Position numbers and translations under genes: made by a program
Source: Takakia lepidozioides
Lineage: Eukaryota > Plantae > Bryophyta
Assembly (NCBI GenBank): GCA_030704615.1
Contig: CM060734.1
Location: 16,430,001 to 16,494,000, forward strand
DNA length: 64,000 nucleotides
Direction of reading: 5' to 3'
The notes under the pieces: model-generated
The model's database searches: none
What the model saw: the letters and a program-made list of their open reading frames with translations, nothing else
Told to the model about the DNA's origin: nothing
Shown: positions 15,744 to 53,535 of the stretch, piece after piece
How the letters are laid out: the number at the start of each line of letters is the position of its first letter
Position numbering within the stretch: position 1 is the stretch's first letter

Positions 15744-16256
15744 TCTCGGGATCATCATGAGGCCGATGGCTTAGCAGAGAGAGTTGTTCAGACGGTGAAG
15801 AGGGGTTTGCGCAAGTATAGCATGCAGAATGGACACCTAGGAGATTGGGATCTTCAGGTTCCTTGGTTAGCCATGGGCTATAGGTTCAGCAAACAAGCAT
15901 CACTTGCCTCCGTCTCACCATATTTCCTTCTCTTTGGCCGAGAGCCGGATTTGCCTGCAGCCATTCGTAGGGACACTGCTCAAGTCCTTAACCTTGACGA
16001 TCCGGACGTGTGGGTACGTGCATGTGATCAGCGTGCAGAGTTGTTCAAGAAAGTCATGCCCATGGCTTTTGAGAACCTTGCCATTGCACAACACCGTGAT
16101 ACGTTGAGGTATGCCACTATACATGGTGGAGGATATCGTCTTGGGGTTCGGAGGTTTAGCCCTGGTGACTATGTTTATTTGTAGCAGACTGCTCCTATGA
16201 CTCTAGATGTTACTGCAGGGCGTGTTATTCTGAGGGTTCGAGAGGTGTTGCCCTCA
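15744..16256 (+). mobile_element. Isolated integrase C-terminal fragment of the DNMT/PHD-gypsy family (piece B)
   Basis: Translates SRDHHEADGLAERVVQTVKRGLRKY...GDYVYL*QT...REVLPS, homologous to about 10788-11304. Confidence 0.9.
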
Positions 16257-19200
16257 CACACATGCTCATGATACAATTTTATTTTCATGCTCGGATACGT
16301 CGGTGACAGGGATCAAGCATGGGTTCCCCTATGTTTTAGTTCTTTCATGCAAACAAACACTACAGTGCGGCAAGCAGCAAACTACCGGCACTGATCTCTT
16401 TTTCCCAGGAGGGCATTTCCACTTTTTAGTATGAATTCAATTCAAGGAGCTTCCAAGGAGTCTTGGTCTCCTACAAAAAATCTTGAAGAGGTTTTATCCA
16501 GCGGTAACGGCCGATTGGGATTTTGCTATGTTAAGTACCTTCAGGGAACAGGACGAAACCGGAATTCAGCGCTGTTTGGGGAGGGTTTTTTAATGTGTGG
16601 TTGAAAGTGAGACAAGATGATGTGGAAGGAATTTCAGCCCCAAGCGTCGATCTGTTCACAACCCAAAAAATATGCTACGCGTTGAAAACGGTGTTTTCAC
16701 GGCGTTTTAGCGTTTGTTGAGTTTCCATGGTTGATGGTGCAACCACATGGACTTGAAGTTTGGTGGGTGTTTCAAGAATACCACAAGGAAATTTGTGGCC
16801 AAGTTTCAACAATTCACTATTTTTGAAGTTTTCGGGCGCCGGTGGCCACAACACATTCATTTGAAGGGGAGTTTTGGGCCACAAATATCTAGCACCGTCC
16901 CCAACCAACTGGTTGGATGAAATGTGCCACCTACCAACCAAAAAGTGGTTGATAGCCTTTTCCATCCAAAGATTTTGGATGTCATCCATTCTTTTTTTAT
17001 AGTTTTTTCTAGTATAAGTAGGTTAGGAGGTGCGCTTGCTCACCACTTCACTCTTGTTTTTTTGCTTGTAGTTGCTTGTTTCTGAGTTGCTTAGAGATCT
17101 AGCTTGAGAGCTTGCTTAGTCTTTGCATCTTGCTTGTGAAGTCCTAGTTGCTTGTTGGCTTAAAGCTTAGCCTAGTTGTTTTAGGCAAGCTTGGAGGAAG
17201 CAACTAGAGGTGCTAGGAAGACTAGGGAGACCCTAGGTGCCTAGTTTGTAAGGCCAAGAGCCATATTGAAGTGAAAAATGAGATAAACTTTTCCAAAAAG
17301 CAAAGTGTTTGTCATTTGAGAGTGTGGTGAGCCCTTGGAGTGTGTGAAGATGAGGTAGGAGCAACAAACCCTATAGGAGAGGTGAGCACTACCCCTTCCC
17401 CTTAAGTTTTGGTAGCCCACTTAGCCAGGTGAAGCATTTTGAGTGGAAAGAAGAAGTTCTTAGCCCTTTGTCTATTCTTGTCTGTTGAAGACCTTTTAAA
17501 CTAACCCTAGCTTGGTCCTACTAACCAAGGAATGGTGGGAGCTTGGGAAAGAGGTGTTGCTATGTGTGTTGCTAGGTGCTATGTGTACAGCTCTCGCTAC
17601 CCTGTTTTTGCTGGGTCCCCTTTGTGAGTCATAAGAACAAAGTGTGGTACTCTGGAATCTCTAGGAACGACGACCCAGCTCGCAGCGCTGGCAGTTCTTT
17701 CACCCCTCCCCGTTGTACCAGGAAAGGATCTCCAATGATACGGGCTTACGTGCATCAGTTCCCCATTCTCACCGATTTGCACCAACCACTAAAGTCACTA
17801 GGAACAAGCTCGAGTGGCCCTCAAGACACCCATTCAATGAAGGTAACCCGATGGCTATCTCTCTATGCAGAGTTCACACTACTCTACGCTACCTGCATGT
17901 GCCTGGAATGCCAGGGTATCACGATGTTATCCGTTATCGTAAGGAGGTTTCTACGCACTTATCTCGCTGCGAAACCCACTGGCCCATCCATGTTCAAGCC
18001 GCGGCTTCTCTCTGGAGCCACACAGGCCTGGCATCCATGATGCCCCCCTACTTTTGGAACCATGGTGCCCTCCCTAATTTTTGCAAGACAAGTGCCCGGG
18101 GCACCCGCTGCACGACGTCATACAGCCGATCTGGGAAGCTTAGTCTGAACCTTGGGAACCTCAGAGGATGTGGGAAGGGGGGAGCAGGGCTCCCAGCCCA
18201 CTGCGCAATGTTCACGATGACACCCCCCCACACCAGCTAATCGCCAGTCCGATATCTCTGCCTCGACCCAGTCACAACTTCACTAGGTGCAATTATTCCT
18301 CACCCACTCGTTTCTTACCCAAATGCTTACAAGGTACTTTGACCCCCTGCTACCATTATTTTCCGCTTCACTATCTTATGATTACTAATCTTCCCCCCCC
18401 CCCAAATCAACTCCCGTACTCTCGCAATGTACTCTCACTTCCACTACCATCTCAGAAGTCTACCAAGATGTCGCCTGCACTCCCGTGCAACCTCACTAAT
18501 CCCAACCAAAACCCACACTTACAGAGATCTCAACGTACAGTTGCCTCTTCCAATTATTATGCCATGTTGCGTTTGCCACATACTCTTCACTGCATTACTA
18601 TAAACTCTGTAAGTTCTACCTCCAGCCTTTCTGCTTTTCTCTATAACCACCCCTGGACTACAGTAAACATCACCTGCACCAAACAGACAACCCCAAATTA
18701 CTACGAAGGCACACCCTCAAGGGAAGTCACTCACCTACATGTTAAATTTCTTCTTCACTCTACATCCCACCTCTACTCCCAGCTTTGTCTACATGCCTAA
18801 GCCCCTTCTAATTCAGCCCTTGGCACTGTTTTGTTTTTCTATGACCATGTTATCGGCTTTAATACCATGTCTCAAGAGTGCATCTCTGGACTAGCGTAGA
18901 CAGGCTCAGACCTGCTTGCCTCGTAAACTGGAATGTTGGGCTGATTCCCAACCACCTCCTCCACTGGCTGCTCACCAAGTCAGCTGCCTTTCATCTCATA
19001 ACATCATTACACAATTTCCCTCACTTACTTCCCGTTGCAGGTCGGAGAGCTATCCGCATACCACCATGTACTTGTCCCTCACCACCATCACTGGCGCTCC
19101 AAAACCCACTCAGCAACTCTGCAATGACAGCTTACAATTATGCTAGTATGATGCCTTCACCCCGGGCTGCTTATCTGAGGGCTCCTGGAGCAATGAGTCT

Positions 19201-19960
19201 GGGCAGATATGCGTAGTGGCACGCCATGTTGCTGCAATGAACAGCGATATGAGTGGTGACTGTGTTATCAAAATCTGCTGCCACATTCGAGAACCTCTCT
19301 CTCTCATGCAACGCAGCCTTGTGGGAGACACCATATTCAGCACATGGCCTCTCACCCACTCTAGTTCATTCAACCCCGTGATCAAGTACTCAAGGCTATA
19401 ACGCGGTAGCACCTCAACATGACCAGTGGAAGCTGTCCATCACCCACACCACTTCGGGCCACGATAGTAGCTCGAATGTCTATGAGACTAAGACAAGCAC
19501 ACACAGCGTGGCTGCCCCCTGGCGGTCAGAGACGGAGTTACAACAGGTCTCAGCGTTCAACCAAACTGCTCACACCCTCCTCCTAGTGGTGAGGATCGAG
19601 AGCCCGCCTCAGATCTATGCGAAAAGGTTGCCACTGCAATGCCCTCAATGGCATCCCTTCACAAACCGCGTCACCCATAGACAAGACACCATCCCAGATG
19701 TGCACGGATAATTGGATTTGGCAGAAAACTCCACTCACCATACGCCAACTGATCCAGACTTGCCTGCATGGGGGGCCTTGTTTGGTGCCCGCAGAATTCA
19801 TGACAATGTAAAGGTTGAGCAGCAGGTCCTGGTGGACTTCAAGGAGAAGAAGAACATAGGCTTATTGGATATGCTACACAATCAGCCAACTGCTAGAGAG
19901 TTAACAATATCTCAACCAGCTCAATCATCAGAAGCACAATGGCACAAAAGCTACTCTCAC

Positions 19961-20035
19961 AGGAGCTTGAATGATGCGCGCCCAGTGTTTGATGTTGTGA
20001 TCTCATGGAATACAATGATAGCCAGATTTGCCCAC
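19961..20035 (+). pseudogene. PPR (PLS-type) motif fragment
   Basis: RSLNDARPVFDVVISWNTMIARFAH resembles the xSLxDARxVFD...VISWNxMIAG PPR consensus. Confidence 0.55.
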
Positions 20036-20913
20036 ATAGAAAGATCCCCGAGAGGGACTCACCACTACTGCAGCATGCTCACTTGGGATGTCTCTCTGGG
20101 AAAAGCTCTTGGATGGGTTTGTCGCAGGCTCTACTGGAGCCGATCACCAGATTACTACAAGGTTCAGACACGCCGTGGACAAGACCTCATGTTCAGCGGG
20201 AGTGGTGGTGCCTGCACATCACCTCAACTCTTTTACACCTCTGGGCCCCTGCTGGATTTCAGGCTCTTTGCAAAGATGGCCTTCAATTCCACCAAGGAGG
20301 CGGACTTCTGGTGCACCCATGCAGCAACACAACTCTGGAAAACAGATAACTACTACCCTCACCCTGTGCTTTGTTCTTTCCATGTCCACCCCTCACTACT
20401 GGTCACTATGTTCCCGCTTGCCCTACATGATGTACAGAGTCAAAGTCATGATCAACCAGATTTATGCTGCCCCCATGTAACACATTGCAGATTTATGTCA
20501 CGCTCGAATTCTTATGCCGAGATAATCTCCAACTTTACCTTTGCATACGTAACAGTCAGAGCTCAATACCATGATCAAAATCCCTTGTTGTTGGACGATG
20601 CTTTCCCTTTCTAAGCATAATCTGCTAGAAAAGAGCTCCACGGAGCGCACCCAGCAGGGGCTCTCTAATTTTATCCACCTCTGTGTTCATTCTCCTGGCT
20701 TCAATTACGTAACATGCACATGTATGGCTGGTCTTGTTGGGTGCCTTACAGGTCTGAGCAATGGCAGTGTATAACTTCTCCACCACACTGCACGAACCCC
20801 CGCCTCAGTTTCACCTTGGTGGCTGGTCCTATTAATGACCATGACAACATGTAGCAAGACTCTATTTACAATGATCTCCACTCTCCATATTACACTCCTC
20901 TTTCACAAGTTTA

Positions 20914-21283
20914 TTTGATCTACTGGCTCCCTGAGCCATACTCAATCTCACATCCATATTTCTCTCCCCAAGTCATGATTTTACATAGTGACCCACGCAA
21001 TTTCTCCCCAACACATAATACATATAACATTCGTATCTGTTTGATCTACTGGCTCCCTGAGCCATACTCAATTTCACATTCATATTTCTCTCCTCAAGTC
21101 ATGATTTTACACACCAATTTCTCTCCAGCTCATAATACGTGTGGCATACGTATCTGTTTGATCTACTGGCTCCCTGAGCCATACTCAATTTCACATTCAT
21201 ATTTCTCCCCCCAAGTCATGATTTTACACAACGACCCACACACTTTCTCTCCAGCTCATAATACGTATGACATACGTATCTGT
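20914..21283. repeat. ~120-bp tandem repeat x3
   Basis: TTTGATCTACTGGCTCCCTGAGCCATACTCAAT recurs at about 20914, 21040 and 21157. Confidence 0.9.
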
Positions 21284-21372
21284 TTTTACTCACCGGTGCA
21301 CTCCCCACGAAATAACCACCCACAATACGTCGACCCACTCTCCAGTTCATAATGCATAGTACACGAATATAC

Positions 21373-22108
21373 CAGTGTTGTACTGGTATGTGCCAGTAGG
21401 CCGGGGTATGTGCACTGGTATGAGTAAGGGTATTGTAGAACATACCAGTTGGGTATGTCTTGGGGCATATACCCCGGCTATACCATGGACCCGGGTTTTG
21501 AACACTGGACCTACCCCCCTACCTACCATACCAGTCTAAGTATGAACTACTTTCATACTCCGCTTGAGACCTGTATTGAGGATTGATGAACCCAAGCTAG
21601 CATGGGTATGTGTAATGATACAATCGGGGTAGAAGGTATGGCATACAATGATTAGCATACAAGGTACAATATGCACAATTTCTTCAGTTTTTGTCATGGC
21701 ATCTAGCTTTTTTCCCATTTGTTACAATCCAGCCTTACAATACAAAGACCTTCACTAATTTATGAGTTGCAATACAAATTAGTTTGCATGGGCATGTATG
21801 ATTGCAATTTTTTTTTACCTTTTGTATGTTGCTCTCAATCTGGTTTTAATTTCAGCTTTGAATACAGTATGATGACTGTTAGGGTATACCATACCATTGC
21901 ACATGACCCCCCCATATGTCATTTGAATTTTTGCCATACCCATGCCTGGGACCAGGGTATCTCAAAATTGGAAATACCCATACCCATCCTATAACCTACC
22001 CTGGCCAGTCCTAATCTACCCCGGGCCCTACCAGTTGGACCCAAGAGCCAAGTTGGACCTACCCGTACCAGTCTGGTATGTCAAAATGGACATACCAGTA
22101 CAACACTG
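21373..22108. mobile_element. Non-autonomous hAT-type element (736 bp)
   Basis: 19-bp perfect TIR CAGTGTTGTACTGGTATGT / ACATACCAGTACAACACTG. 8-bp TSD GAATATAC at 21365-21372 and 22109-22116. Confidence 0.92.
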
Positions 22109-23163
22109 GAATATACCACCCAGATATACCTCTCATGCACACCACTCAAATACACTACTTGGACATACTATTCATTTGTACTCTTCAGCCTTGATGCTAT
22201 CCCCAAACACATTTTCCACTTCCCATACCACCTTAATATTGGCAAACAATTCTTATGCTACTTACACCTCGATGCTACGTCTTACAAACAATTCTTATAT
22301 AGTCTATACCTCCATACTACTTACAAATAATTATTACCTTGTTCAAATATTACTCTCCACTTGTAGCTATACCGCACCCAAAGTTTCTGCCTCTACCAAT
22401 CTACCCAACTACAACTCCCATACCACTTATACCCTAACCCCGCCAAAACTCAAACATAGTACGGGTATCATACCAAGCACCCCCTTAATTTCTACCTATA
22501 CCAATCTACCCAGCAATAATTCCACCAACAACACCATAACCCCGCCAAATTATAAATATACCACGGTTATCATACCAAGTACTATATTAGTATACTTATA
22601 TACGACCCCCATGTCCACATCAGATGAGCGCTACATCCACTACCTATTCATAAAAATACCCGCCACCCACATTAACCCTTCCAACATTATTATTGCACCG
22701 TACATACCGACATCCCCCCCACCTAGTGTTTATACCCAAATAAACCCCATACCATATGTACATTATCCCCACCACATACCCATGAAATTAACCCCACCCT
22801 CCATCAATCCCTACCACAATCATAGGGGAACCGGTCGTCCAGGATTGGCTCTCACCTAGGGTCTCTACCCCCTCACAACTGCTACAATACATCCATCGGG
22901 ATATCAACGCCACATCAGGCACTCCCCCCCTCCATTTATCATTACACCAACCCCCTCACTCCCTGCACACTAGCTCCACACTCACCTCTGAGACCACACC
23001 ACACCGCATAAATGGACCACATCACGCCCACTTCTACCCTCCCACACGACCTAATAAGATACTCAAAATATACCACCCCATTACCCATTGCCCTCATGGG
23101 CGATATCGTTTTATCCCCTTAGCATCCAAACATCACCTTCACCATCCTCCCTCGCCTGACACC

Positions 23164-23427
23164 ATGTACTGCAACCTTTGTATCACTCTTACCTTGCTCA
23201 GATGCAGGGACATCCATCCCAACCCAGGTCCTACCTCTATAGATGACATCACCAGTCAACTGCTAGCTAACCAACAGGATCGATATGCACTATACTTTTG
23301 CCCAAACAGCATATCCTTTGTTCACACCTATCGTCACCTATATGACCACTTCGCCCCTTTCCTTCCCACACTGGCCACCAACAACCAACTCCCCAAACAG
23401 AGGGGGCTGCTACTTCATGAGCCATGA
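23164..23427 (+). pseudogene. Degenerate non-LTR retrotransposon-like ORF remnant with a 2A-like motif
   Basis: LLRCRDIHPNPGP at 23194-23232, in a C/A-rich decayed stretch. Confidence 0.45.
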
Positions 23428-24280
23428 GCAGACTCGTAACTGTCGAAAAAATCACGAGCAAGATTTTTTTTCAGAAATGATTGTCCACGGAAATAGGGTG
23501 TAGGGTCTCACGCTCATAGGGGGACAAGGACCTCACAATGAAGGAGGTTGGGCAATGTTTTTTTAAATTAAATATTGAAACTCCAAAGTTTAAATTCATT
23601 GTCATGCTTCCGGATACAACGGATGTCGACATCTCAGCCGACATCTATACATGCACATTGTACACACTGAAACTCAAATAGTGACCGTATTGTAGAGAAA
23701 CATGCTGAAGCTTAATGAATTCTGTGACGCTGACTAGGTATTCACGGTAACCATCCCGTCCTCACAATATTCCTCCAGCAACCTCGTGAAAACATAGTGC
23801 ACTTGGTGGCGGTTTTGATCAAAGTGCACCACCACCTCGTCTTCCTCCGACTCTTCAACATTGCAACACGCCATCTATCCGGGTCCTCAAAAAGCGGGAA
23901 GTCTTTGTCCCCGATCCGCATGTTCCAGAGTCGCCAACTACCACTACGCAGCTGGTCTCCCCACCTGTCCAACAGATCCCAAGTCCACTCGTGGACAAGT
24001 ATGGACACTTGGTGTTCAGGTGGCTCATCGCTGAAAAGTGGACCTGGACATAGCAAGACGGCAATGTCGCCAACCCGGGCAGAATAACCTCTGTCCTGTT
24101 GAAGCCCAGGGCAACCTTCTTGACCACACGCCATAGAAACAACGAAAGGGATTAACAAATAAACGACGGAAGGGCAAATGGGGATTGTGAAGAAAAGCCG
24201 CATGTTAACCGCTGGTTTATGACTTAGACAAAACAGGCTCTCAGCACTACTACCCATTTCCCAAGACATGCAATAGAGGT

Positions 24281-25062
24281 TGTCCGACGGTATGCTTTCA
24301 GAAATGATTACAAAGTAATCGTTTTATGGATAGCTAAACCATGGCCGTCGTATGAATCAATATCTCTGTAGGTTACTTAATCCTATTGATTAAGCCCAAC
24401 CTATAGTCTCAGTAGCCTAAAAGATCTTAGTCGGAAAGGCTGAAGCCTCTTTGTTCATATAGTCAGATGGTAGTCAAGACAAAACAAGAGCTATTCTGAG
24501 ATGCTACACATTCTCACCATCTCACGTTCACTCTACACAGATATACTTGGAATAGCATGGCTTTACTTTAGAGTTCATCACATCATAGCATAAGTACACA
24601 TCGAATCACGTCTCTGAGTCCACTGAATACACACTGATCACTGATACCTTCTAAGTCACGTGTAGCCCTTTTATACTATGCTCAAAAGAGCCGTTACAGC
24701 CTGAAGTCGTTAATGACCGTTGCCTAACTGCCTACGCAACCTAAAGGGTTTGCTAAAAAAATGGCTCGTTGTAGTGGTCGTGTGCCATAGTGGTACACGG
24801 TCCACGGTCCTTCACTACTTTCTCTATTAGTAAAAACCGATGCTAACGTGGCCGTGTGATATCGTGGTTCACGGCCGACGGTTGCTATACTACCCACTAC
24901 TGCTCCCGTGGTAATGTGCCCTTGTTCCGCCGTTTGCTAAGTGCCGCATACTTAGCCTTTTCTGCCCGTGGTGTAAACCAATCACCATCCGGTATGTCCC
25001 ATCGTGACCCTCGTTGTCTGGCCCTCGTATCTTAGCCATTATCATTTATCCCCCCCCCCTCT
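24281..25062 (-). mobile_element. Probable 3' LTR (25044 to ~24281) with PPT of another gypsy element
   Basis: Minus strand reads AGAGGGGGGGGGGATAAA followed by TGATAATGG. Candidate end ...CGGACA at 24281. No second LTR is present to confirm. Confidence 0.5.
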
Positions 25063-27367
25063 GTTGAAATTGTGTCCGCACAATTTCGTCAGTTCCTGTG
25101 TTTGCTGTATCTCTAGGGGATGTAGGGTGGTGGCATGCCTGTCTGCTGGTTAGGAAGTGCGTCCCAGGATTGTCGTGGTGGCAGCTTCTTGTTTCTGTCA
25201 TCACTGTCTGGTTGCTCCTGTGGTTCGTGAGTGGGGCAACTTTCGTTATCAGGGTGTTTTGTTATTCCGTCCCCACGTATCATGTCGATTTTGGTGGTCA
25301 GGGTTTAGGTTTGCAGCTCCTCCTTGGTCCAGGGTATAATGTTTTTAGTTGCCCTGCTGCCCATTAACCAGTTAACAACTTGCGTCCCTGTTTCTCTGAA
25401 AGGGTGGTCTCTGTCCAAGACCAATGGTGAAAAGTGGTCTTTCGTCTGGCGCCATGCTTCAGCATATAGTGGTCTGTTCATATATGTTGAAGTGCATGCG
25501 ACTCTCTCTGGTGGCTGGAATTTGGGTAATTCCCAGTGAGTATCTTTTTCAAAACTCTCATAGCGCTGCCAGCTTCCCCTCATTGTCACAAACATCCGGT
25601 ACAAGTAACTGCCAATATAAAAACTTGGACAACCCATTACAACGTCTACTGCCGGGGTAGGATTAATCTTCAATTGCCCCACTGCCCACATGTAAGCTTT
25701 CTGTGGTGGCTGTGAACAGTCTACTTTCAACATTTTCCCTTTCCTTCAGCAGTACAGTGTTGCATGAGAGACACTTACTTCCCTAGTCTTTGGCAGTCTT
25801 CAGTTGCCCCTTGAGTATATCTACCTGCTCCTTAAGTGTCTGCACTTGTCCTGTGATAGGTAGTTGCTGGATTTATTGTGGTTTCTTCCTGATGTTTACA
25901 AGGTTATTGGGAGAGTCAGCTTGGTCTTAGCAGGCAGGGTTTCAATCTCTGGGAGGCATGGTCAACTGCAAACAGCAGTGGCAGCAGCACAATTGATAGA
26001 ACAAGGCACTGCTAATCAAGGTAACTTCTTCAACGCATTTCAGCCTGTTTTTCCATGGCTGTCATTGGGATTGCAGCCCTAGCAGCTGATTCTGTGTCTA
26101 AGTAGCACGGACAAGGTAGTCGAATAGAATCTTGCCAATGTGGATAGTGGGAGGGCAGAGGAGGTAGCTGACACTGTTATGGACTTGTGGGCCTGGTGTG
26201 GCGTACCTTACTACGTAGGGGCCCAGGGGTATGTGGCGTACTACATGGGCAACAAAAGAAACGCCGGTCGCAGAGGCACTGGAGTGGTCAGGCCAGACGA
26301 GGGAAGTAGGACAGTAGCAGCGAGATGTGATGAAGAGCAAAGTAGAAAGGCTGAACAAGCGAAGCATAGGCGTGATTCAAGGGTTTCCAAAGCTGCAAGG
26401 GACGTTGAAGTGGTTGTTCATGAACGCGATATGGAGTGTTGTGAAGAGAGGGACGAACGAGCAGTGGGTAATTGCTTGAATAGCATTGTGCATGTCATTG
26501 AAGATGAATTGACTCAAAGAATGGATTAGACTCAAAGAAAATTGTGATGGGGAAGGTTCTCTATCACCCACAGCTTGCACCCTTTATGCCTTCTAACTTA
26601 TTGCTTGATGCAAAAGAAGCTAGAGCAAACCAAATTGCCTTGCATAGTATTAGAGAATGGCAGAGCAAAGTAAAAGGGAGACAGAGAAAATATATTGCTA
26701 GAGCCAAGAGCATTGTTTGTAGTGTGGCAACTTCCAGCCACACTGAGAATGTAAGATTGACTGTGAAGGTCCTTAGCGTAGATTGCAGGCTGCTTTCAAA
26801 AGGTATGAATAGACGAAGGCTTCTTGATGAGGCCGGGCAACCGTTGTGGCAATTGGAGAGTAAGCGAGCTGATGCGTTGACTAAAGAAGTTCAGACACTA
26901 ATAACAGAGTGGTGGACAACAGAAACCACGGTGTCACCAAACAAAAAGGAAGTTACTCGACGTCGCAGGGGGCCAAAAGATTATGAGACACGTGCCACAC
27001 ACTATCTTCAAGAGTCTCAGGTTTCTCCTCTCTACACTTGTTGTTTTTCTGTGTTCAATTGCATGTCCATCTTCTCAGCAACCTATATAGATCCTGAACA
27101 GTTTGCTTTCAACATGTTAGACTGACCATAATTCTCCTTCTTTAAGGATCTTACTTTTTTAGGAGTTTGTACATTGTTAGAGTACTTACTTACTAGGTAG
27201 GACAAGACCTCTGAAGTTTTCAGGATCAGGTATATATGTTGTTACAGTATATATATACTATGGCCTGGTTTGTATAAGTGTTAGTTGCACTCACTAGGGC
27301 TACTACATCATAAAGCCCTTGTTCTGTAGGAGTTAGTGCAGTACTGCAGTATCCTAATGATAGCTAT

Positions 27368-31116: not shown

Positions 31117-31215
31117 TTCACGGGGGTTTAATAGTCAGAAACGCCTGAGTAGTTGTGTGCTATTGCCAATATTGTTCATGTCCATCCGGAATCATACTTC
31201 CATGCACTTTTGCAG

Positions 31216-42841: not shown

Positions 42842-43721
42842 TGACGAGCCTCGCCGCGCGCGCAATTGCGAAGGGGAAAAATGCGACGTCGATCCGGGGC
42901 TTGGAGTTCGGCGACGAGGTGGGTTGGGCTCAAGAACCGCCCACCCGTGAGATGTGTCGCTAAGCTTGGCCGAGGGTCAGCGGTCGACGGAGGGAACTCC
43001 TCCCGCTATCCTAACTACCAGCCAGCACAAGGTCCAACTCCTATGCTTGCGAGGCAAAATTCGTTTGTGTGACCTACGGAATCTACTCCTAATTAATTGC
43101 CTTCCAAGACTTCTTTATTAGCGTTAATACAGCTTCACCCCGGAGCTATCAGTGCCCCTGGCAGGTCCTCTTCGCCTAGAGTGACAGTGGCCAAGAGGCC
43201 CATGGAGTTGTTTTTTGTTTTCCTTGTCTTGAAGTACTAAGAAGGGAAGGGGCTAACCCTTGAACACTAACCATGCAGTGGGAGGTTCTAATGGGGATGG
43301 GTGTTCCTTTTCCTTGGCCACTAGGCATTCTTCACGTGTGAAGCTAACCAAAAAAAACAAGAAAAGCTAGCCAACTAACCCTTGGATAGATGCTTGTTAG
43401 TCGGTGGGAACCCTTCATAGCATTTTTATTTTTCTTTGTTTTCTTTTGTAACAAGTGAATGAGGCCGTGTGCCATTCAAGCTTGCATTATTCTCCAAACA
43501 TTACCTTGGTAGTTGAGTACTAACCCCCCCCCCCCTTTCGGAGAAGGAATGGGGGAAGGCTAACCCTTGGTTATGTTTATTTTTTGCTTTATAAGGTTGC
43601 TGGGAATTTATTTTTGCACTAAAAATTAATTTCCAGGCTTATTTTCCTAGTCCTAGAAGGCCTCCAAGCATATAAGAGCTTGGAAGACCTTACTAACATG
43701 GGTAGTTAGGTGAGCTAACCC

Positions 43722-44519
43722 TTGGGGTTAAGCCATGATCATTCAACCTCACCATGTACACCATCAAGGACAGTTAAAGCAAGTGCAGGGATGGCTACAG
43801 AGGGGCAGTATGGTGCGCCACATTTTATGGCGGGGCAGACCTCAATGCAGCAGACGTCACAGATCCCTTTGGACGGGAGGGAAGGTTTACACGACACATT
43901 ATTGCAGGGTTCAAGCACCAGTCCTGGAGGGACACCGGATCAATTGACGGGCGGAGATCGCCAGAATGCATTACGGAGGGATAGGAGAGTGGTAAAAAAA
44001 GAACTCAAACAGCAGGCTGCTACCAATGTGGCTGCAGGGAAGCGCAAATTTGTCATTGATTGCAATAGTGATGGTGCCCCACAAGGCCCTGCACGCAGCC
44101 AATGGATGACTGCATTACAAGGCCAGTCCATGCGACTGCTGGACTGGAGTGTAAAAGGTGAAGATCAGCCAGTAGAGGCGCTTAAGAAGATCATGGACGT
44201 ATTAGCGCAGGACTGGGAATATGGAACTCCTGGGATTGAATTGAAGGAACTTACAAAGATCATTTGTAGACAGTTGAAATACCAACGACGCAAACTGTTT
44301 AAAAACCATTACTGTGCGGGGTCGCCCAAACCTGAATATGTTCCAGACAAAACATGGGCACAGTTGCTATCAACGTGGGCATCAGAAGGCTTCAAAAAAC
44401 AATCTACCAATGGTACAAAGGCACGGGGGCGTGTGAAAAAGTTGTTCCGATGTGGAGTGAGTGGTATGAGTGGAGTGGCAACAAGACTGGTAAAATCTAT
44501 GCCTCTACAGCCTATATGA
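43722..44519 (+). CDS. CACTA/En-Spm TnpA-like (Transposase_24-like) ORF fragment
   Basis: KPEYVPDKTWAQLLSTWASEGFKKQSTNGTKARGRVKKLFRCG matches the P..V....W..L...W.S..F...S.....R pattern. Confidence 0.6.
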   Translation: MGLSHDHSTSPCTPSRTVKASAGMATEGQYGAPHFMAGQTSMQQTSQIPLDGREGLHDTLLQGSSTSPGGTPDQLTGGDRQNALRRDRRVVKKELKQQAATNVAAGKRKFVIDCNSDGAPQGPARSQWMTALQGQSMRLLDWSVKGEDQPVEALKKIMDVLAQDWEYGTPGIELKELTKIICRQLKYQRRKLFKNHYCAGSPKPEYVPDKTWAQLLSTWASEGFKKQSTNGTKARGRVKKLFRCGVSGMSGVATRLVKSMPLQPI

Positions 44520-45579
44520 AAATGCGTGAATATTGTCCAATAGGGTTCAGCTTGCTTTCAGAAACAGCTGTCTTCAGGTTTTAGGTAGTATGGAGCATAC
44601 GACCTCAGCAAGAAGTCCTGGCGGTTGCTGCCAAATTGTGTTCTTCTGTCAGGCTTGCCTTCTTTGAATGGATGGTATGGATGTCGCTTTCAGCCACAGG
44701 GTGGAGATTTTTGCATAGTGGTTGCTGCAATTGTTTGTGGTCTTGTCAGCTGCACATGCAATATTTAGAATCCTTTCTTGGGAGGCTTCGGAGTTCTGTG
44801 ATGAAGCCGTTTTTGTATTACCTGGAAGCACCTCTAATTGTTTTGCAGACTGCATTAGCTAGATCTTTTTCTTTGGCTTGACGCAATAGTCTTGTCAGAA
44901 TAGTGGTAGCTGTCATTAAGATGTTCGGCCTCTGGACCATGCTATCCTCAGCTGGAGTTCTCCATATTAATCTATTTTGTGTCTTTCTCAAAATTGGTCA
45001 TTCGACTCTCTATCATATAATCTCTCTTATGTTGATTCTCCGCTTTATATTTGGAATAGAAACAACTATATATCAAATACACCCATGCTCACATGCTACC
45101 CAACCTCCCTCATCTTCAATGTGCAGATTTGGCTTGGCCTATGGACAGGGGCATGGCTTTGGGTTTTTATTTTTCATTTTTATTTTTCATTTTTTTTAAA
45201 GGAAATACCCTGGGAACGACTGCTCACAAATCAGGCCCCTTAATTATAGTGAGAGGAGAAAATAACCTCTTTCTGATAACCTCGTCATGAGGCGCCAAGT
45301 ATGAGGCTCAAGGGACATTGCCGAAGGGCAACACATAAGCCGACATCAGATGTAAAGGCCATAGACCCCAGTCCAAGGTTCTAGTTATGCAGCTGCCAAT
45401 AAAGCACCTTTCTACTATCTCTGCGCCACCAAAGCTCCTAGTGTGCGGCTTATCACAGATTCTTACTCCTGCAATTGAACACAACCCGTGCCCTCCTAAC
45501 CGACCAGATTGTGTTTCCATACATATGAGAAAAGCCTACGTCCCCAGAGAAAGATAAACATGATTTCACAGCCGTATAC

Positions 45580-48089
45580 AATTTTTATTTTATTTTTAAT
45601 AATAAAAGTGGGGAGGGAGGGGAACCAGATTCTTCTTTTTCTTTTTCTTTTTCTTTTCCCAAAGGGCGTTCGCCATTTAGTTTATTGGAGGGGAAAAACT
45701 AAACCGCATTGATGCCATAAGGCAAGGAACACATCAATTGGATGAGGGACGAGCCCAGACGAATGCAAAAGAGACCGCCTTAATGGCGAATGCCTGGAAT
45801 GTTACCTGGATAGCTGATAAGCCATAGAGGCCTTGGGAGAGGAGGATGGACGACCATTGTCGTCCAGACCGCCACTCCACCTAATGATGCAAGAATGTAT
45901 GAATGCGAGTGCTTGACGTACTCCGAGAAAAGCAAAGGACCAAATAACGTAATTGCCTGCCTACTGTAGCCTAGAGGATGCATGCAAGCAAGTTTAATTT
46001 TGGAGGAACATGATGCAGTCGTTTGCCGAAATTCAGCTTCACCAATCGTTTCCCTTTGAGGTGCCTCCAATTGATATCTCGGTCGTAGTATGGAGAATCA
46101 GGGCAGAAGCGTGGAGCGGTTTCCCCAACACTGAGGAATTGAGCTCCAGATGCAGATGGTTGGTGGAGGGCTTGAGCATATAATTCCCTGTTTAGCCCAT
46201 GATTCGTTGAAGGCCTCGTGAAGCTGATGTTGAGCCTCTGGATGCTTTGCCGATGTCTGCAGTCATTTTAATCCATGTCTTTCGTCCTTCAGTTTGAATG
46301 TCAAAGAAAACCATAACAAGCAACAAAGAAACCATAGAATTTGAGGTGCCTAAGGTCCAAGCGCATCTGGTTTTCCAAATGTGCCAAAGCCTAGCAGCTC
46401 TAATCGTGTCAAAAGATACAACCTGTTTGGTTACTGGGTCATAGTTCAGCAGCAAGTTGATTGAAGTGAGTGGGGTGAGGTGCCAAGTTTGAAGAACCGT
46501 GTTGAGGAGTGGCCAAACCTTAGAAGGGATATAACATTGAAAGAGGCAGTGCTCGAGGGACTCAACGATCCCCAACAAACAGCGTATGCAGAGCAAAGCG
46601 TTCGAGAATTGGAGCCAGCAGCCCACTTTGAGGATTCTATTGGCCACCTGCCAGAGGAAAGCCCCGATTTTCGTAGGTCTAGTTTTCACCCAAATTCGTT
46701 TCCCTCTTGACCATAAACCAATTGAAATGGTGTAAATCCGGTTGTAACCTTAAAGGCAGTGCGATAGGCCCATAATGCAGAAAATAACTTCGTGTCCCAA
46801 TCACTACCAGTGCCAGAAATGGTTTTCGTCAAAATACCACATAAAAGCCCATTGGTCTTTTCTGTCTGCCCATTAGCGCGGGGATGGTATGGCGTAGTCT
46901 TTCGATGTTTATTCATGTACTTAGTCGTGAGTTGCTCAATAGTAGAATTCAAGAAATGGGTACCACGATCGCTCACCAATTCCCGGGGACAACCAAAGCG
47001 GGAAATAATATTCTCATATAAAAATTGAGCAACCACTTTTGCGGTATCAGTACGAGTAGCCATTGCTTCAGCCCATTGAGTAACGTACTCCGTAGCAACA
47101 AGAATATAACGCTTTTGACCATTATTGTTGCCAACATTCACCTTGAAATCCATAGGCTCCCCATTTGGCATCCCATTTTGAGGTGGGAATGGTTGTCGAG
47201 CTAAGGCATTTACAAGCTTTTTTTTGCTGTGTACTGAAAGAGTGAGGGTTTTCCATCCAGCGCCCACGACCATTCATTTGGATCCAATTGCAAGGCCATG
47301 AGAGGCTTGTGTCCAATCCAGACGAATGTGTTTCCGCATCGCCAGCATATGATATCTGACCCTGGGGGCCTCATAGGGTTCATGTTTGCAATGGATAACC
47401 ACTGGCAGATTCTAACCGGGGAGTATCCCCCCCCCCCCCCCACGTATATCAGCTGCATTTGAGCAGGCTGCAGGATTTTCGTTTGTGGGCAGCAGTCCAA
47501 AGCATGCCCAATGATGTTGATGTGGTTGCTTTCCAGAATGTAAATCACCTGCAGTGGCCTTGTTGAGCATGTGATCTAGGAATCCGGAAGGGGAGGTAGC
47601 GGCCCCCATTGGAGGATGTTTATCCATGGGACTGGAATGGATTGGATGATTTTTGCATAACCCGCGTTTCCCCTTGTGGATCCCACAATCTGGTTAATTC
47701 GATATTCTTGGCTCTAGAAGACATTGCCTGACCAGATGTTCCCTAATTGCGAGATACCAAGGTTGTCCCAGGCAGACCATCGTTTTGCAGAACCACGATC
47801 CTCCAGGCTGTGGACGTTCAAGTTAAGAAAGAGGTGTTGACGGATTATTTCTTCATATGTGGTAGGTTCCTCTTTAATGAGGTAAGGTCTTACTCTGCCC
47901 CAGGCTTTCCAAATAGATTTCCATAGAGGAGATCTTGGTTGCTTGTGCTTGAAACCATTGATGATCCAACGCTCGGAGCTTGACCATTGTGCAGACTTGA
48001 GGGGGGAGCTTTGAACAATGTGTCTTAGCACTAGGGGCCTCCACCAAGAAGTATGGGGACCGAGTAGTCTCAAAATCCATTTTCCAAGC
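45580..48089 (-). mobile_element. L1/Tx1-type LINE, C-terminal part (post-RT region, zf-RVT, 3' UTR with A-rich tail)
   Basis: LGKWILRLL...SPLWKSIWKAW, and zf-RVT KIGAFLWQVANRILKVG...CIRC...ESLEHCLFQC...WHIWKTRC. A-rich end near 45580-45600. Confidence 0.85.
46709..47124 (-). mobile_element. Isolated gypsy integrase-core fragment inserted in the LINE
   Basis: YILVATEYVTQWAEA...SRFGCPRELVSDRGTHF...YHPRANGQTE...TPFQLVYGQE, with no LTR. The LINE frame resumes on both sides. Confidence 0.85.
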
Positions 48090-48560
48090 GGGGCGTGCTA
48101 GATTGTGAGCAGCTCAAGGCTTTTATTTTGTTTTTTTTGTTTTTTGTTTTTGGGGTGAATTGTCATGTTCCAAGAGGGGCTGGGAATTAAGGTGTCGTTG
48201 ACGACACCTTAATCTGGCACATTCGATTTTCGATTTCGATTTCCCGAATGTGCCAAATTAAGGTGTCGTCAACGACACCTTGATTCCCAGCCCCTCTTGG
48301 AACATGACAATTCACCTGCCACCTTAATCTGGTTGGTCTTCTGGGCTGGAATTAAGCTCTAACAGGGGCTAGGAATTAAGGTGGCGTTGACGCCACCGTA
48401 ATGCCGAGTCTGTTTCCCTCTACGAACATGGCTCCTCGCCAAGGCTTTTATTTCATTTTTATTTTTATTTTTGGTTTTTGGGGTGAATTGTCATGTTCCT
48501 TGTGAGGGCTGCGAATGACGCCACCTTAATGCCGAGTCTGTTTCAATGGTAGAACATGGC
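48090..48560. mobile_element. DNA transposon terminus with a 72-bp-arm hairpin
   Basis: Starts GGGGCGTGCTAGATTGTGAGCAG. Inverted arms at 48154-48225 and 48245-48316. Confidence 0.75.
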
Positions 48561-48778
48561 TATTCGCTACGTCTAAATGGATGCAATGGATAGATACAAT
48601 GGATGTAACACATCCAGTCTACATTCCCTTGAAAGGGCTGATCAACCCGCGGTAATAGGTGACACCCGCGGAAATAGGCCCTGTATGCATGCTGACGTGG
48701 CGTGAGCCTGTGCTGGGCTCACGGGCTCCTGGGCTCACAGGCTCACGCCTCCGGGCTCACGGAATAGCACCCCCCTCT

Positions 48779-48977
48779 CACTACTACGTTTCGGGGGGGT
48801 TAGCGATGCCCAACCCCCCGTGCCCCATTTCCCATGCGGTTTCTGCGATGCTGAAAATTCTTGCGACGCCTCAGGCATCGCAAGGCGGCCGAGGGACTGC
48901 CAATTTGGCCAAGTCCCTATTTGCGACGCCCCGGGCGTCGCAGGTTCAAGTTGTGACGCCTTAGCAACCCCGAAAAA

Positions 48978-49008
<31 letters not shown>

Positions 49009-49645
49009 CATTGTTTTTTTAATGCGACGCCCTGGGGGTCGCTGTTTGGGAGCGGCGCCCTGGGCGTCGCTTACATTTGAGCGACGTGAGGAATGTTGCT
49101 TTGAGGTCCCAACGAGCAACTATGCATGAACTACCTTATGTATAATTAAATCATGAGTTTGTGTGTAAGTTTTGTAACTGATATGTTCGTTAGTGTGAAG
49201 TGTCTTACTATGTATATAATGTAGAGGTCTTGAGCTCAAATTTCCCTAACAACACGTTGAATGATTTAGGAACTCGATATGTGTCGGCTACTTGCAAACA
49301 CATGCTCATGGGTTAAGTTTGACACTACGTGGCAAGTGTGTGTCCTGCCATTTTTTGAATCGTGTGGGTCTTGCCATTTTTCAAAATTCAAAATTCAAAA
49401 AAACCTCAATAAGCGACCCCGAGGGCGTCGCTCCAATACAACGACTCCCAGGGCGTCGCTTTAGAAAAACAACATATTTATTTATTTATCCCTCATGTAT
49501 GGCTATAGCGACGCCCGGGACGACCCGACCCGCTTGGGGCGACGCCTCCGCGATTTCCGCGGGCCCAAAAATAGGCGAATAGGCGTCGTTCGAGCGTCGC
49601 TAAACCCCCCAACCCAACCCCCCCCCCCCCCCGAACGGTGTAGTG
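48779..49645. mobile_element. Non-autonomous CACTA element (867 bp)
   Basis: Termini CACTAC...GTAGTG with G-rich TIR extension. 3-bp TSD TCT on both sides. Many GCGACGCC subterminal repeats. Confidence 0.92.
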
Positions 49646-50664
49646 TCTGGCCCTATTGTGATAACTAACTTGACATATAAGGACACCGTATTTTTCTCCA
49701 AGCAGTGTTCTAGCTGGTAATGGTTGTGTCAGTAGGTTAAGTCAATGTCATTGATGGTGAGGTCTTGATTGGGTGTGATAGGTGGACGATCCAAGATTGA
49801 CATTCCAATATACTAGTAGTAGGGCATTGACATGGGTGTGCAATGTACACGGTAGCAACTAGCAACCATGATGGGTAGTATATAGGTGTGTCAATGCAGA
49901 GCCCGACTATGCCCAAATATACTACTAGTGATAGGACTCTCCATCTCAATACCACCCCAACAATGCCTAATCAAACATCACATCTATTACATCAAATTTA
50001 TCTACTGTCACGATATATATCCACAACAAGCAAAACTCTCACAACAGGGAAAAATATGCTCCATTAATCCTAGCCCTTCAACAACATGGATGGAAAGTTG
50101 GACCCCGTAACACTCATCACTGCTAGTGTCTTTGGCAACATTCAGAGTAACTCTCTCATTAACAACCTTTTATTGCCCTACCCCTCAGTCACCTCTCGTC
50201 TAAAAATATACATGCCATTCGATCCTCGGTAAGAAGATGAAGTGGCTTTTGAGTTAGGCCGGCTATGGTTGGAATCATCTCTCTCTATCTTATAGGTACC
50301 AATATTTATGAGTGAAAACCATGGTTTTTAAGTCCTACATAAGGAGCTCATATAGAGGTGTTGTCTGATTATATGTAGTCCATATGGATGATACAGAGAG
50401 GACATTGGCTCAAACAGTGGGCCGTGTGTCTCATGCAAGGGGTTGGATGTGCAAAGTCGATACTTAGGTGACCGGTATAGTTGTGGCCAACAAATGTTTT
50501 TGCGCTGATTGCCCTTATATATATAGCATAGCGGAAGCGGAGGCCAAATCTGAGCGTCACTGAAGGCTGCTTTGGAGATCGAAAATGTATAGAAACTTTA
50601 CGGGCTAAGGTGCTTGATTACAATCACAAGAATAGTGACACCAAGTCTCAGACTCACCTAAATT

Positions 50665-52504
50665 TTGAACGACTCAGGCAAAATCGTTGATTCTTGTGAA
50701 GATTTGAGTAGTTTTTCTCTATTTTCATTGCTCTGGATTAATTGGAAAGGTTATTTTTCCTTGGCTTCTAATTCAAATCTGGTGAAGATCCTTGAAAGTG
50801 ACCAAACTGATCCTCTAATCTTCCTAACATACCTGGAAGCAAGAGCAAACCTGGACAGCCATGAGAAACAGGTGGAAACCAAGCTCAAAATCCAGGCGGG
50901 GATAAATTGGTGAAAAGATGTCAAAATATTTCTTTGACAAGGTCCAGGTTCATTTGGCAAGACAAGAAATCCCAGAGCTCAATGATGTCCATTCAGAGGG
51001 TCACACATTCTGACCCCAAAAATAATCACAGACATTGCACGGCGACACTTCTCCGAGCTTTTCAAACAAAGAGATCAGTCGATTCCCATTGACCAGGCCA
51101 TAGAAAAATGCATTCAATCTCACCTTGTTAAAATCAGCCCCCTGGAAGCAACGTCCTTGGATGGGATGTTTACTGCATTGGAACTGTTTAGGGCTTTGGA
51201 GTCCATGTCAAACCTCAAGGCCCCGGGGGAGGACAGAAATATGCCCGTAAAATTTTACAAGATGATGTGGCAGTATATCTCATCCGATTTTTGCAATATG
51301 GCCAATGCCATCAAGGCATCACAGGACATGCCCAAGGAAATGGCTCAGGGAGTCATTGTTCTTCTGTTCAAAAAGGGAGACAGGAAATCCATAGCCAACT
51401 ACAAGCCCATCACCCTCCTCAATGCCTCCTATAAAGTCATTGCAAAAACCTTGGCCTTGCACCTCCAACCGCTGCTACCCTCACTCATCAGACCTAGCCA
51501 AACAGGCTTTATCAAAGGCACATTCATCCTAGACAACATTCTGCTCCCTCATGAGACTCAATCGTTTGCAAAAGACTCTAACCTTGCAATTGCTATGCTA
51601 CTTCTTGATTTTGAGAAGGCCTTTGACAAGGTAGAATGGCCAGTCTTAATGCCTACTATGCGAAAGGTAGGTCTGTCCTCAGGCTTTTGCAACTGGGTCT
51701 CAATCCTTCTCAAGAATGCCACCAACAAAGTGCTTACAAATGGATTCTTATCCTCCCCATTCCAGCTACAGCGTTTGGTTCGCCATGGATGCCCATTTGC
51801 ACCCTTCCTCTTCTTGATTGTGGTTGACTCGTTGGGGCATTTGCTGGAAAGTAATGCAAACATCACACGCCTTACTATCCCGCACCAGCATCCCAATGAC
51901 TTCACATCAAATCCTCAATGTTTGTTGATGACACAGTTCTATATCTGAAGGCTACAAGCCCAGACAACCTGGCCCAAGCCATTTCTATCTTAAATGTCTT
52001 CTACTTGGCCTTTGGCTTCAATGTAAACTGGGACAAGACGGTGGCATTGCTGGTTGGGGACAGATCTGAATCTGAAATTGAGGACTCCCCTACCTGGGGC
52101 CAAGAACTAGGGCTTAAATGGCTTAAGGATGGCGAAAGTACCAAGCTCCTTGGTTTCCCCTTTGGTATTAACCTAACTGAGGATCAGCGAATAGGGCCCA
52201 TCATTGAAAAATTGAAACGCAAGCTCGTCTTCTGGGGTTCCAGGCACCTCACTCTCACAGGCAGAGGCCTGGTGGCCAATCAAATACTTATGGCCAGTAT
52301 TTGGTATTTTGCCTCTGTATAGAGTCCAAACCCATCCCACTTAAGAGAAATCAAGAGAATCATTCGCAACTTTGTCTGGGGAGCCAGCTCTAATTCTCAA
52401 TTCATCAGGATAGCGATCTCATGGGCCCAAATATGCCGCCCCCGAAAGCATAGGGGCCTCGGGATCCTGGATCCCTGCAGTCAGATAGACGCTCTGTTTG
52501 GAAA
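50665..52504 (+). pseudogene. L1/Tx1-type LINE ORF2 reverse transcriptase region, frameshifted
   Basis: KAPGED, NYKPITLLNASYKVIAK, QTGFIKG, LLDFEKAFDKV, VRHGCP, FVDD, NWDKT, GGLGILDP. Left boundary approximate. Confidence 0.92.
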
Positions 52505-52551
52505 GAGGGTAGCTACCGTGTGAGCAGCTCACGTGAGCACACTAATCGTGA

Positions 52552-53535
52552 GGTGCGGTGGTCTATCAAGGCTTTATCACACAAAGTCTGAAACTCCCCC
52601 AAAAACTCTCTCCCTTGGTCCGTGAGTACCTCAGCTGGAGCACCAAATCGGCTAAGCACACGATCCAAGAATGCATACGCAGCCCCCTCACTAGCCTTGT
52701 CAGGCAATGGAACCAACTCAATCCACTTGGAGAAGTGCTCCACCATCACCAATACATATCTGTGGTGGCGCATAGTCAGTGGCAACGGTCCTGCGAAGTC
52801 AAGACTCCACCTGTAGCCCAATCCCATGATTGGTAAATGATGCAACTGTGGTGTAAGGGTGTTGAATGAAGCACGCACCCTGTCACACACCATGCACCTA
52901 GCCACAAACTGTTGCACCTCTGTATGCATACCACGCCACCAATACTGCCCTTGCAGTAAACTGTGAGTGCGTCGCACTCCAAAATGCCCCAACTCCTCAT
53001 GGGCATGCCGCACTAACCGTGCACGCTGTGTGAGGTGAGGCACAATCCTCACCCGACCATCCTCCCATACTCAAAGCAGGTGTATCCCCTCCCACTTGAA
53101 CCTCTTGGCTCATTGTAGGATCCGATCCCTCTCCTTGGCAGTCACACTAGCTGCCATGTCTCCAGTGTGGAGGTAGTCCAACACAACCGAATCCTCATGT
53201 ATATCTCTGGCACCACCTGGCTCATCACTAGCCTCAGGGTCCTCAGACACTCCGTCTACAGTCATCCATGTTGTAGGTCCAACCTGACATCCCGATGCCA
53301 AGATACACAAAAAGGCAGATGCATGCCATCCCGGCACCATCTCCTCGTCCGTTTCACCATGCCACCGAGCTCCAGTGTCATCCTGCTGGCTCGTGCATGG
53401 ATTGCGATTCAATCCATCCGCATCCCTATTGACCAACCCCGGTTGATGCACAACCTGAACATGTCTCTCATGCTCCTCCACCGTAGCACGAGAGGCAAAG
53501 CAATACCTATAAGCCTCAGGAACCGCCGTATACAT
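52552..53535 (-). pseudogene. Residual RT/RH junction and integrase (HHCC plus core N-half)
   Basis: ATVEEHERHVQVVHQPGLVNRDADGL...HEELGHFG...CMVC...SLDFAGP...VLTDQGREF...IDHRT. Confidence 0.9.

What the first reader, a model, noticed from the sequence alone, without database searches (positions are those of the whole stretch)
15744..52552. One retroelement apparently shattered into three pieces that tile almost to the base
Seen, relative to the reference copy at 8722-11586: piece A (minus) ends at ...IDHRT (52552). Piece B (plus, 15744-16256) starts at the next SRD and ends at EVLPS. Piece C (minus, 40031) starts at ILEGQDG. The gaps are only about 3-4 nt and about 8 nt, with no overlap. TGCTCAC-rich transposon-end motifs abut both sides of the A/B break (52505-52551, 15668-15743). 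Inference: local scrambling of a single insertion over 45 kb by alternative transposition or multi-break repair. Misassembly is also possible.
Basis: partly seen in the sequence, partly recalled or inferred. Interest (0 to 1): 0.7.

Follow-up and report, generated by a model that had tools for sequence, protein, structure and literature searches.

The report
Nested inversions splitting one plant retrotransposon
In repeat-rich DNA of what is likely a moss- or liverwort-like plant, four pieces of a dead jumping gene fit together almost to the base, likely because two nested chromosome flips cut through one copy; such flips are ordinary, but the gene belongs to a little-studied family with unusually arranged end repeats.

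Summary
A ends at 52552, B spans 15744-16256, C starts at 40031. Gaps are 3 and 8 nt against B-like copies in public runs. A fourth piece, D, is split from C by a nested chromovirus with a 5-bp TSD. End repeats upstream of A and downstream of D are 98% identical, so these are one insertion.

Two nested inversions (15744-52551; 16257-40031) likely explain the layout. The TGCTCAC arrays beside A and B are two halves of one Mutator-like end, cut 47 nt inside its tip with no TSD. That points to end-joining, not transposase cutting. A third inversion (48090-52504) splits a LINE and carries a 9-bp TSD (8/9).

Not shown: reads across the junctions, and the reciprocal join of the inner inversion.

The element has DNMT, DDE integrase and PHD, with split repeats (A...B-A-B). 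The 3' duplication recurs in 28 of 60 related loci (controls 0 of 91). This arrangement is printed once for Klebsormidium, and this scan found it twice before on other DNA.

The parts
61139..61450 (-). 5' end repeat A1 of the split element (first ~14 nt of the repeat missing)
   Evidence: 306/312 identical to 32013-32324
53997..57844 (-). gag-like, protease-like and C5 DNA methyltransferase coding region
   Evidence: PF00145 E 1.2e-09; tblastn to Klebsormidium protein P0064 residues 59-569; gag and protease read from motifs, no Pfam hit
52552..53457 (-). Piece A: end of RNase H linker and integrase N-terminal part; most of RT/RNase H deleted just upstream
   Evidence: 741/904 to reference copy; Integrase_H2C2 and rve
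52505..52551 (+). T2: outer 47 nt of a Mutator-like transposon end, terminus at 52505
   Evidence: 21/21 match to the end at 29187-29207; alignment score 48 vs shuffle max 30
15299..15743 (+). T1: inner part of the same kind of end, 20-nt TGCTCAC array at 15668-15743, no terminus
   Evidence: another copy runs from 15699 into an E2-type terminus (table 5c)
15744..16256 (+). Piece B: integrase core to C-terminal part
   Evidence: 420/513 to reference; loose ends of related copies match A's end and C's start
39811..40031 (-). Piece C: start of the PHD region
   Evidence: 174/216 to reference
32841..39810 (+). Nested chromovirus-type LTR element between C and D, 5-bp TSD
   Evidence: LTRs 718/726; Chromo, rve, gag, protease; TSD
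32531..32840 (-). Piece D: end of PHD, 3' non-coding part and polypurine tract
   Evidence: aligns to reference 11530-11847
31822..32530 (-). 3' end repeats B1 (32530-32341), GACA-nn-TGTCA joint, A2 (32338-32013), B2 (32011-31822)
   Evidence: B1/B2 184/190, A1/A2 306/312
15744..52551 (.). Inversion 1 (36.8 kb, inferred): joins T1-B and A-T2
   Evidence: both joins reciprocal; about 3 nt of the retroelement and about 6 nt of the transposon end lost
16257..40031 (.). Inversion 2 (23.8 kb, inferred), nested in inversion 1
   Evidence: B/C tiling with 8-nt gap; reciprocal flank join untested
48090..52504 (.). Segment of a third inversion that splits a LINE (limits as read under the reversed-ends model)
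   Evidence: LINE halves in opposite orientation, each bounded by a Mutator-like terminus, 9-bp TSD 8/9
50986..52504 (+). LINE half 1 (RT to post-RT motif)
   Evidence: RVT_1; translation
47210..48089 (-). LINE half 2, continuing half 1 in the opposite orientation
   Evidence: translation; zf-RVT further on at 46195-46749
48090..48775 (.). E4: small element with a Mutator-like terminus at each side and no TSD of its own
8722..11935 (+). Separate, truncated copy of the same family (RT-RH-INT-PHD, B1 and joint; no B2 or A1 found)

Best explanation
Four pieces (A, B, C, D) of a Ty3/Gypsy retroelement tile almost to the base; they likely come from one inserted copy that was likely cut by two nested inversions (about 37 kb and 24 kb) repaired by near-blunt end joining, while a nested retroelement separates C from D. 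Inversion 1 broke the element between A and B and broke a Mutator-like transposon end 47 nt inside its tip, then joined the four ends crosswise (T1-B, A-T2). Inversion 2 broke between B and C and somewhere in unrelated repeat DNA, returning C and D to A's strand and leaving B alone reversed. Shown: the pieces, gaps, subfamily match, end-repeat identity, both joins of inversion 1, the chromovirus TSD. Inferred: the inversions, the repair route, and that the flanks at 16257 and 40032 were once neighbours. Whether the two inversions were one event or two cannot be decided; breakpoints 513 nt and 47 nt apart mildly favour linked events.
For: Tiling: gaps 3 and 8 nt against copies close to B; pieces map in order on full-length relatives P0016 and P0017. 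Same subfamily: A's last 23 nt match the sequence that precedes B in related copies at 23/23 (run X2) and 22/23 (X3), the reference copy at 19/23; C's first 22 nt match what follows B at 21/22 (X1) and 20/22 (X4), the reference at 18/22 vs X1 (counted by hand). One insertion: repeat upstream of A vs repeat downstream of D 306/312. Reciprocity of inversion 1: T1 has the interior and no terminus, T2 the terminus and no interior; one 20-nt unit is completed if about 6 nt were lost; another genomic copy runs from the T1 array into such a terminus (table 5c). Junctions have 0-1 nt microhomology and no TSD. T2 is a real terminus: it carries a 9-bp TSD shared with the terminus at 48090, the only 9-mer pair within 1 mismatch among 66 pairs, 0.007 expected.
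Against: No displayed contig bridges 15743 or 16256; piece tables were cut (93,299 and 930 rows not shown), and 40031 and 52552 were never laid. The four runs are one sample and may be the assembly's source. The flank join predicted by inversion 2 has no support: no Pfam hit in 12 frames, no loose-end row at 16257. B is tied to A and C only by tiling and by about 22 nt on each side. T1's similarity to other ends is modest (score 68 vs shuffle max 62 for E2; 59 vs 69 for E3).
Confidence: 0.72

Rival explanations
1. Same single insertion and real junctions, but the B/C break is not a simple inversion: four breaks were repaired at once with loss of DNA, so the flanks at 16257 and 40032 were never neighbours.
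For: Breakpoints cluster (513 nt between A/B and B/C; 47 nt between 52504 and 52552). No evidence was found that the two flanks belong together.
Against: Fragment order and orientation are exactly those of two nested inversions, and the three measurable ends lost only 3-8 nt.
Confidence: 0.15
2. Alternative transposition by the TGCTCAC element made the A/B and B/C breaks.
For: Transposon-end motifs touch both sides of A/B. A TSD-bearing inversion at the tip of the same end, 47 nt away, fits the reversed-ends pattern described for maize Ac.
Against: Reversed-ends inversions have TSDs precisely at the termini (PMC8225341, passages). Here A/B lies 47 nt inside the end and shows a 3-nt gap; B/C has no transposon end on either side.
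Confidence: 0.06
3. Assembly artefact: pieces of a high-copy repeat were misjoined.
For: The family is very abundant (summed depth over B in the hundreds of thousands vs about 50-80 for single-copy pieces). No bridging contig was displayed.
Against: Joins are blunt, reciprocal and lose a few bases on both partners, which overlap-based misjoins are not expected to do (established knowledge). No N in the window. The neighbouring inversion has a diverged TSD. Four runs hold 72-78% of sampled words of 12000-21500.
Confidence: 0.05
4. A, B and C are fragments of different copies that tile by chance or at break hotspots.
For: High-copy family; a second copy lies in the same window.
Against: Both ends of B fall within 3 and 8 nt of its neighbours' ends in an element about 10 kb long (roughly 1e-6 per fragment, my estimate). 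Related copies read straight through both positions. End repeats tie the A side to the D side.
Confidence: 0.02

Closest known systems
KnitGypsy-Dnmt3 of Klebsormidium nitens (de Mendoza et al. 2018, PMC5890265; passages and section 9 read, figure not visible)
   Same: C5 DNMT inside the polyprotein of a Gypsy element; legend of Fig. 4c says the repeats are arranged as in DIRS while the domains are Gypsy. The window's element has the same A...B-A-B layout and aligns to K. nitens protein P0064 over protease-DNMT and integrase.
   Different: Here in what is likely a land plant and at high copy number; this copy lacks most of RT/RNase H, has stops, and is cut in four. Dnmt3 clade membership was not tested.
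Reversed-ends transposition inversions of maize Ac/fAc (PMC8225341, PMC9910405; passages) and VANDAL21 rearrangements in Arabidopsis (PMC12312487; passages)
   Same: The LINE-splitting inversion has a transposon terminus at each breakpoint and a matching TSD.
   Different: The A/B and B/C breaks have no terminus at the cut and no TSD. For the LINE inversion, one insertion followed by a later inversion inside the transposon fits equally well.
Inversions from mis-repaired double-strand breaks, e.g. Chlamydomonas CC-503 (PMC9940879; passages)
   Same: Shared or clustered breaks, small deletions at joins, inversion nested in a larger rearrangement.
   Different: Tens of kb in repeat DNA, apparently old, no gene shown to be hit.
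Split-direct-repeat tyrosine-recombinase elements (PAT, TOC1, Ngaro: recalled; SymbioDIRS-Dnmt3: PMC5890265 passage)
   Same: A-coding-B-A-B repeat layout.
   Different: This element has a DDE integrase (rve, H2C2) and a PHD finger; no tyrosine recombinase hit.

Membership tests
Ty3/Gypsy LTR retrotransposon | RT-RNase H-integrase order with DDE integrase | tested here: met
   Reference copy: RVT_1, RT_RNaseH, Integrase_H2C2, rve in order. The split copy keeps integrase but has lost most of RT/RNase H.
Ty3/Gypsy LTR retrotransposon | Two complete, colinear LTRs at the ends | tested here: not met
   5' end has A only; 3' end has B-A-B.
Ty3/Gypsy LTR retrotransposon | Polypurine tract just before the 3' repeat | tested here: met
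   G-run directly before B1 in the window and in most related loci.
Ty3/Gypsy LTR retrotransposon | 4-6 bp target-site duplication | tested here: inconclusive
   The window copy lacks its first ~14 nt; no held locus had both ends.
KnitGypsy-Dnmt3-like elements | C5 DNMT in the polyprotein ahead of RT | tested here: met
   PF00145 E 1.2e-09; colinear with P0064.
KnitGypsy-Dnmt3-like elements | DIRS-like A...B-A-B repeats | tested here: met
   Window; 3' duplication in 28 of 60 related loci, controls 0 of 41 and 0 of 50; 5' ends without B in L058-L060 and L061.
KnitGypsy-Dnmt3-like elements | DNMT falls in the Dnmt3-derived clade; RT tree groups with KnitGypsy | not tested
   No tree was built.
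DIRS/PAT/Ngaro (tyrosine recombinase) | Tyrosine recombinase gene | tested here: not met
   No such Pfam hit in the 33 ORFs scanned; short ORFs in the leader 57957-60829 were not among them.
Reversed-ends transposition, A/B and B/C breaks | Transposon terminus exactly at each breakpoint | tested here: not met
   Cut is 47 nt inside the end at A/B; no end at B/C.
Reversed-ends transposition, A/B and B/C breaks | Matching TSD at the breakpoints | tested here: not met
   Gaps of 3 and 8 nt.
Reversed-ends transposition, LINE break | Termini at both breakpoints with matching TSD | tested here: met
   52505 and 48090; 9-bp TSD 8/9.
Reversed-ends transposition, LINE break | The two termini belong to two separate elements | tested here: inconclusive
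   E4 has an end on both sides, but T1 and E4 interiors also map in order on the element at 28132-29221.
Mutator-like elements (MULE) | 9-bp TSD | tested here: met
   9 bp for a MULE in PMC4334395 (abstract).
Mutator-like elements (MULE) | MULE transposase | tested here: inconclusive
   Candidate ORF 26508-27122 has no Pfam hit and only unnamed Atlas clusters; its link to these ends is unproven.

The most novel reading that the evidence does not exclude
The cut element belongs to a DNMT-bearing Gypsy family, widespread in non-seed land plants, that has a DDE integrase yet always ends up circularly permuted (A...B-A-B): the reverse-transcribed ends are joined into a two-LTR circle and the integrase opens it at an internal GACA-nn-TGTCA palindrome. 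In addition, the three inversions here would record one transposase-triggered multi-break event around a Mutator-like end (that part alone about 0.2).
Probability: 0.5. Interest if true: 0.7.

Novelty: new member of a known kind. Interest (0 to 1): 0.38.

Why it matters
The rearrangement is one local event in repeat DNA, of known kinds; it shows that old transposon copies can serve as base-level markers of inversions without a second genome. The wider interest is the element family. If a DDE integrase routinely inserts a circular intermediate through an internal palindrome, that departs from the standard route in which linear cDNA ends are joined. It would also mean that LTR finders that require two colinear LTRs (as in PMC6317226, passages) miss an abundant, DNMT-carrying family in bryophyte-like genomes.

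Tried and rejected
No own genome is held, so no genome-wide copy set or tree. Laying four runs on 14200-33700 and one on 15590-16420 showed no bridging piece because the tables were cut; this is no evidence against the junctions. Flanks of inversion 2: no Pfam family in 12 frames. Flanks of the whole insertion (31821 and 61451): I first read them as one continuous frame, but that depends on a 0-2 nt overlap choice and no homologue backs it (none; one weak hit, P0121, which gave no tblastn hit on the window); dropped. LINE continuity by homologue: none at E 1e-15, none in solved structures, no hit for half 2 in held loci; it rests on the TSD and a recalled L1 motif. I first took the B-A-B end for a one-off two-LTR-circle insertion; rejected once it recurred in related loci. 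The records behind the metagenome loci are not held, and a viral scan gave one weak locus, so no TSD could be read for the family. Literature searches for the family and its repeats; only PMC5890265 was found to mention the arrangement. Supplements, Repbase and theses were not seen and may describe it.
Full report
Setting. The window is repeat-dense eukaryotic DNA without N; no whole genome is held. The closest named relatives of piece B are Marchantia polymorpha and Calypogeia fissa proteins at 76-79% identity, so the host is likely a bryophyte-like plant (inference).

1. The observation. Against the copy at 8722-11935, A (53457 to 52552, minus), B (15744-16256, plus) and C (from 40031, minus) align at 741/904, 420/513 and 174/216 and cover consecutive parts of full-length relatives P0016 and P0017. 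Contigs of related copies laid on B continue upstream of 15744 and downstream of 16256. This fixes the gaps at 3 nt and 8 nt. It also gives a subfamily test, counted by hand. A's last 23 nt match the upstream continuation at 23/23 (X2) and 22/23 (X3); the reference copy matches X2 at 19/23. C's first 22 nt match the downstream continuation at 21/22 (X1) and 20/22 (X4); the reference matches X1 at 18/22. The test is short but points one way.

2. More pieces. C is cut at 39811 by a complete chromovirus-type element (32841-39810; LTRs 718/726; 5-bp TSD; Chromo and rve). Piece D resumes at 32840. Upstream of A lie gag-like and protease-like sequence and a C5 DNA methyltransferase (PF00145, E 1.2e-09); most of RT/RNase H is deleted. 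A repeat at 61450-61139, upstream of A, is 306/312 identical to 32324-32013, downstream of D. The A side and the C/D side are therefore one insertion. Its repeats differ at 12 of 502 sites (2.4%), the chromovirus LTRs at 8 of 726 (1.1%), consistent with the nesting order; with a recalled plant rate near 1e-8 that is roughly one million years.

3. What the TGCTCAC motifs are. Five similar transposon termini occur (29221, 41996, 48090, 48775, 52505; picked by eye from 12 loose pattern hits). The 47 nt after A are a terminus without interior; the array before B is an interior without terminus. The 20-nt unit of the array is completed across the two if about 6 nt were lost. A contig from another copy runs from 15699 into a terminus of this type (table 5c). 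So the two arrays are best read as halves of one end. The joins T1-B (plus) and A-T2 (minus) are then the two reciprocal joins of one inversion, 15744-52551. The cut is inside the end, with 0-1 nt microhomology and no TSD. Reversed-ends inversions in maize carry TSDs precisely at the termini (PMC8225341, passages), so this break does not fit that route. T1's likeness to the other ends is only modest.

4. The B/C break. A second inversion, 16257-40031, nested in the first, accounts for C and D lying on A's strand with B alone reversed. It predicts that the flanks at 16257 and 40032 were neighbours. I could not test this: no protein family in 12 frames and no loose-end row at 16257 among those displayed. 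The flank at 16257 is itself multicopy, so the test is easy with the genome.

5. A third inversion. The terminus at 52505 abuts a LINE half on the plus strand; the terminus at 48090 abuts the next LINE half on the minus strand (continuity rests on a recalled L1 motif). Their flanks form a 9-bp TSD with 8 of 9 matches, the only such pair among 66, 0.007 expected. This fits reversed-ends transposition by Mutator-like ends, proposed for VANDAL21 in Arabidopsis (PMC12312487, passages). It fits about equally well one insertion followed by an inversion inside the transposon, since T1 and E4 interiors map in order on the element at 28132-29221. Breakpoints 47 nt and 513 nt apart hint that the events are linked; this is not shown.

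6. Artefact? Four runs of one sample hold 72-78% of sampled words of 12000-21500 and give long exact pieces elsewhere in the stretch. The case against misassembly is therefore indirect: blunt reciprocal joins with small losses, and TSDs at neighbouring events.

7. The element family. The 3' end reads polypurine tract, B1, GACA-nn-TGTCA, A2, B2, ending in GACA; the 5' end has A only. In 80 metagenome loci of relatives, 60 had enough downstream DNA. Of these, 28 show the B1/B2 duplication, against 0 of 41 downstream and 0 of 50 upstream control windows. They collapse to 19 groups by flank, of which L068 is doubtful. B2 ends in GACA in 16 of the 28, in a one-letter variant in 10, and otherwise in 2 (read by eye). 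The other 32 loci show no duplication; those examined are truncated after B1. Two 5' ends (L058-L060, L061) begin at TGTCA with no B before. In the host's own runs the A-end/B-start joint lies in contigs far above single-copy depth (table 4, position 32012). De Mendoza et al. 2018 state this arrangement for KnitGypsy-Dnmt3 in one figure legend (PMC5890265, section 9 read). My searches found no other paper on it; supplements and repeat databases were not seen. This scan noted the same layout twice in other genomes; one note reports a 4-bp TSD, which I could not test. The likely mechanism (inferred): reverse transcription makes B-A repeats at both ends, the ends join into a circle, and integrase opens it at the internal palindrome.

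8. Verdict. Observation confirmed; one insertion; most likely two nested inversions by end joining, with a third, TSD-marked inversion next door. The rearrangement is a local instance of known processes. The host element is a new member of a briefly described family whose integration route is unexplained. Papers seen: PMC5890265 (passages, section 9), PMC6317226, PMC9940879, PMC8225341, PMC9910405, PMC12312487 (passages), PMC4334395 (abstract and outline); others as search listings only.

Noticed in passing
window 4001-6698: A recent-looking block of direct and inverted duplications (970 nt inverted at 96.8%, 662 nt direct at 99.2%), a further local rearrangement.
   Followed up: no
window 2-1567: 88.5% copy of the 3' end of the chromovirus at 38224-39810.
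   Followed up: no
window 53449-53489: The split copy jumps from a 41-nt RT remnant to the RNase H/integrase linker (reference 9204 to 9877), with short microhomology seen by eye.
   Followed up: partly
window 61122-61138 and within 61139-61450: The 17 nt after A1 are complementary (16/17, by eye) to a stretch inside repeat A; no tRNA-type primer site is evident. Self-priming is possible but the position is not at an obvious transcript start.
   Followed up: no
window 27862-27937: Short, very high-depth piece that reads like a PPR repeat (motif recalled, not tested).
   Followed up: no
window 29626-30084 (-) and 61451-61855 (+): ORFs on both flanks of the insertion with motifs recalling N4/N6 methyltransferases (recalled); no Pfam hit at E 0.01, no clear homologue. 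Both flanks carry related short repeats (71%).
   Followed up: partly
window 43719-44519 (+): ORF resembling CACTA TnpA-type proteins (recalled); no Pfam hit.
   Followed up: no
window 46689-47200 (-): A lone integrase fragment of another Gypsy family sits inside the LINE (rve E 1.7e-11).
   Followed up: no
window 3603-3715 and 61778-61890; 13681-14054: A 113-nt piece duplicated at 97% across 58 kb, and a 187-nt tandem duplication at 97.9%.
   Followed up: no
window 26508-28133 (+): Transposase-like ORFs next to the end at 29221; no Pfam family, Atlas clusters unnamed, from rotifers and streptophytes.
   Followed up: partly
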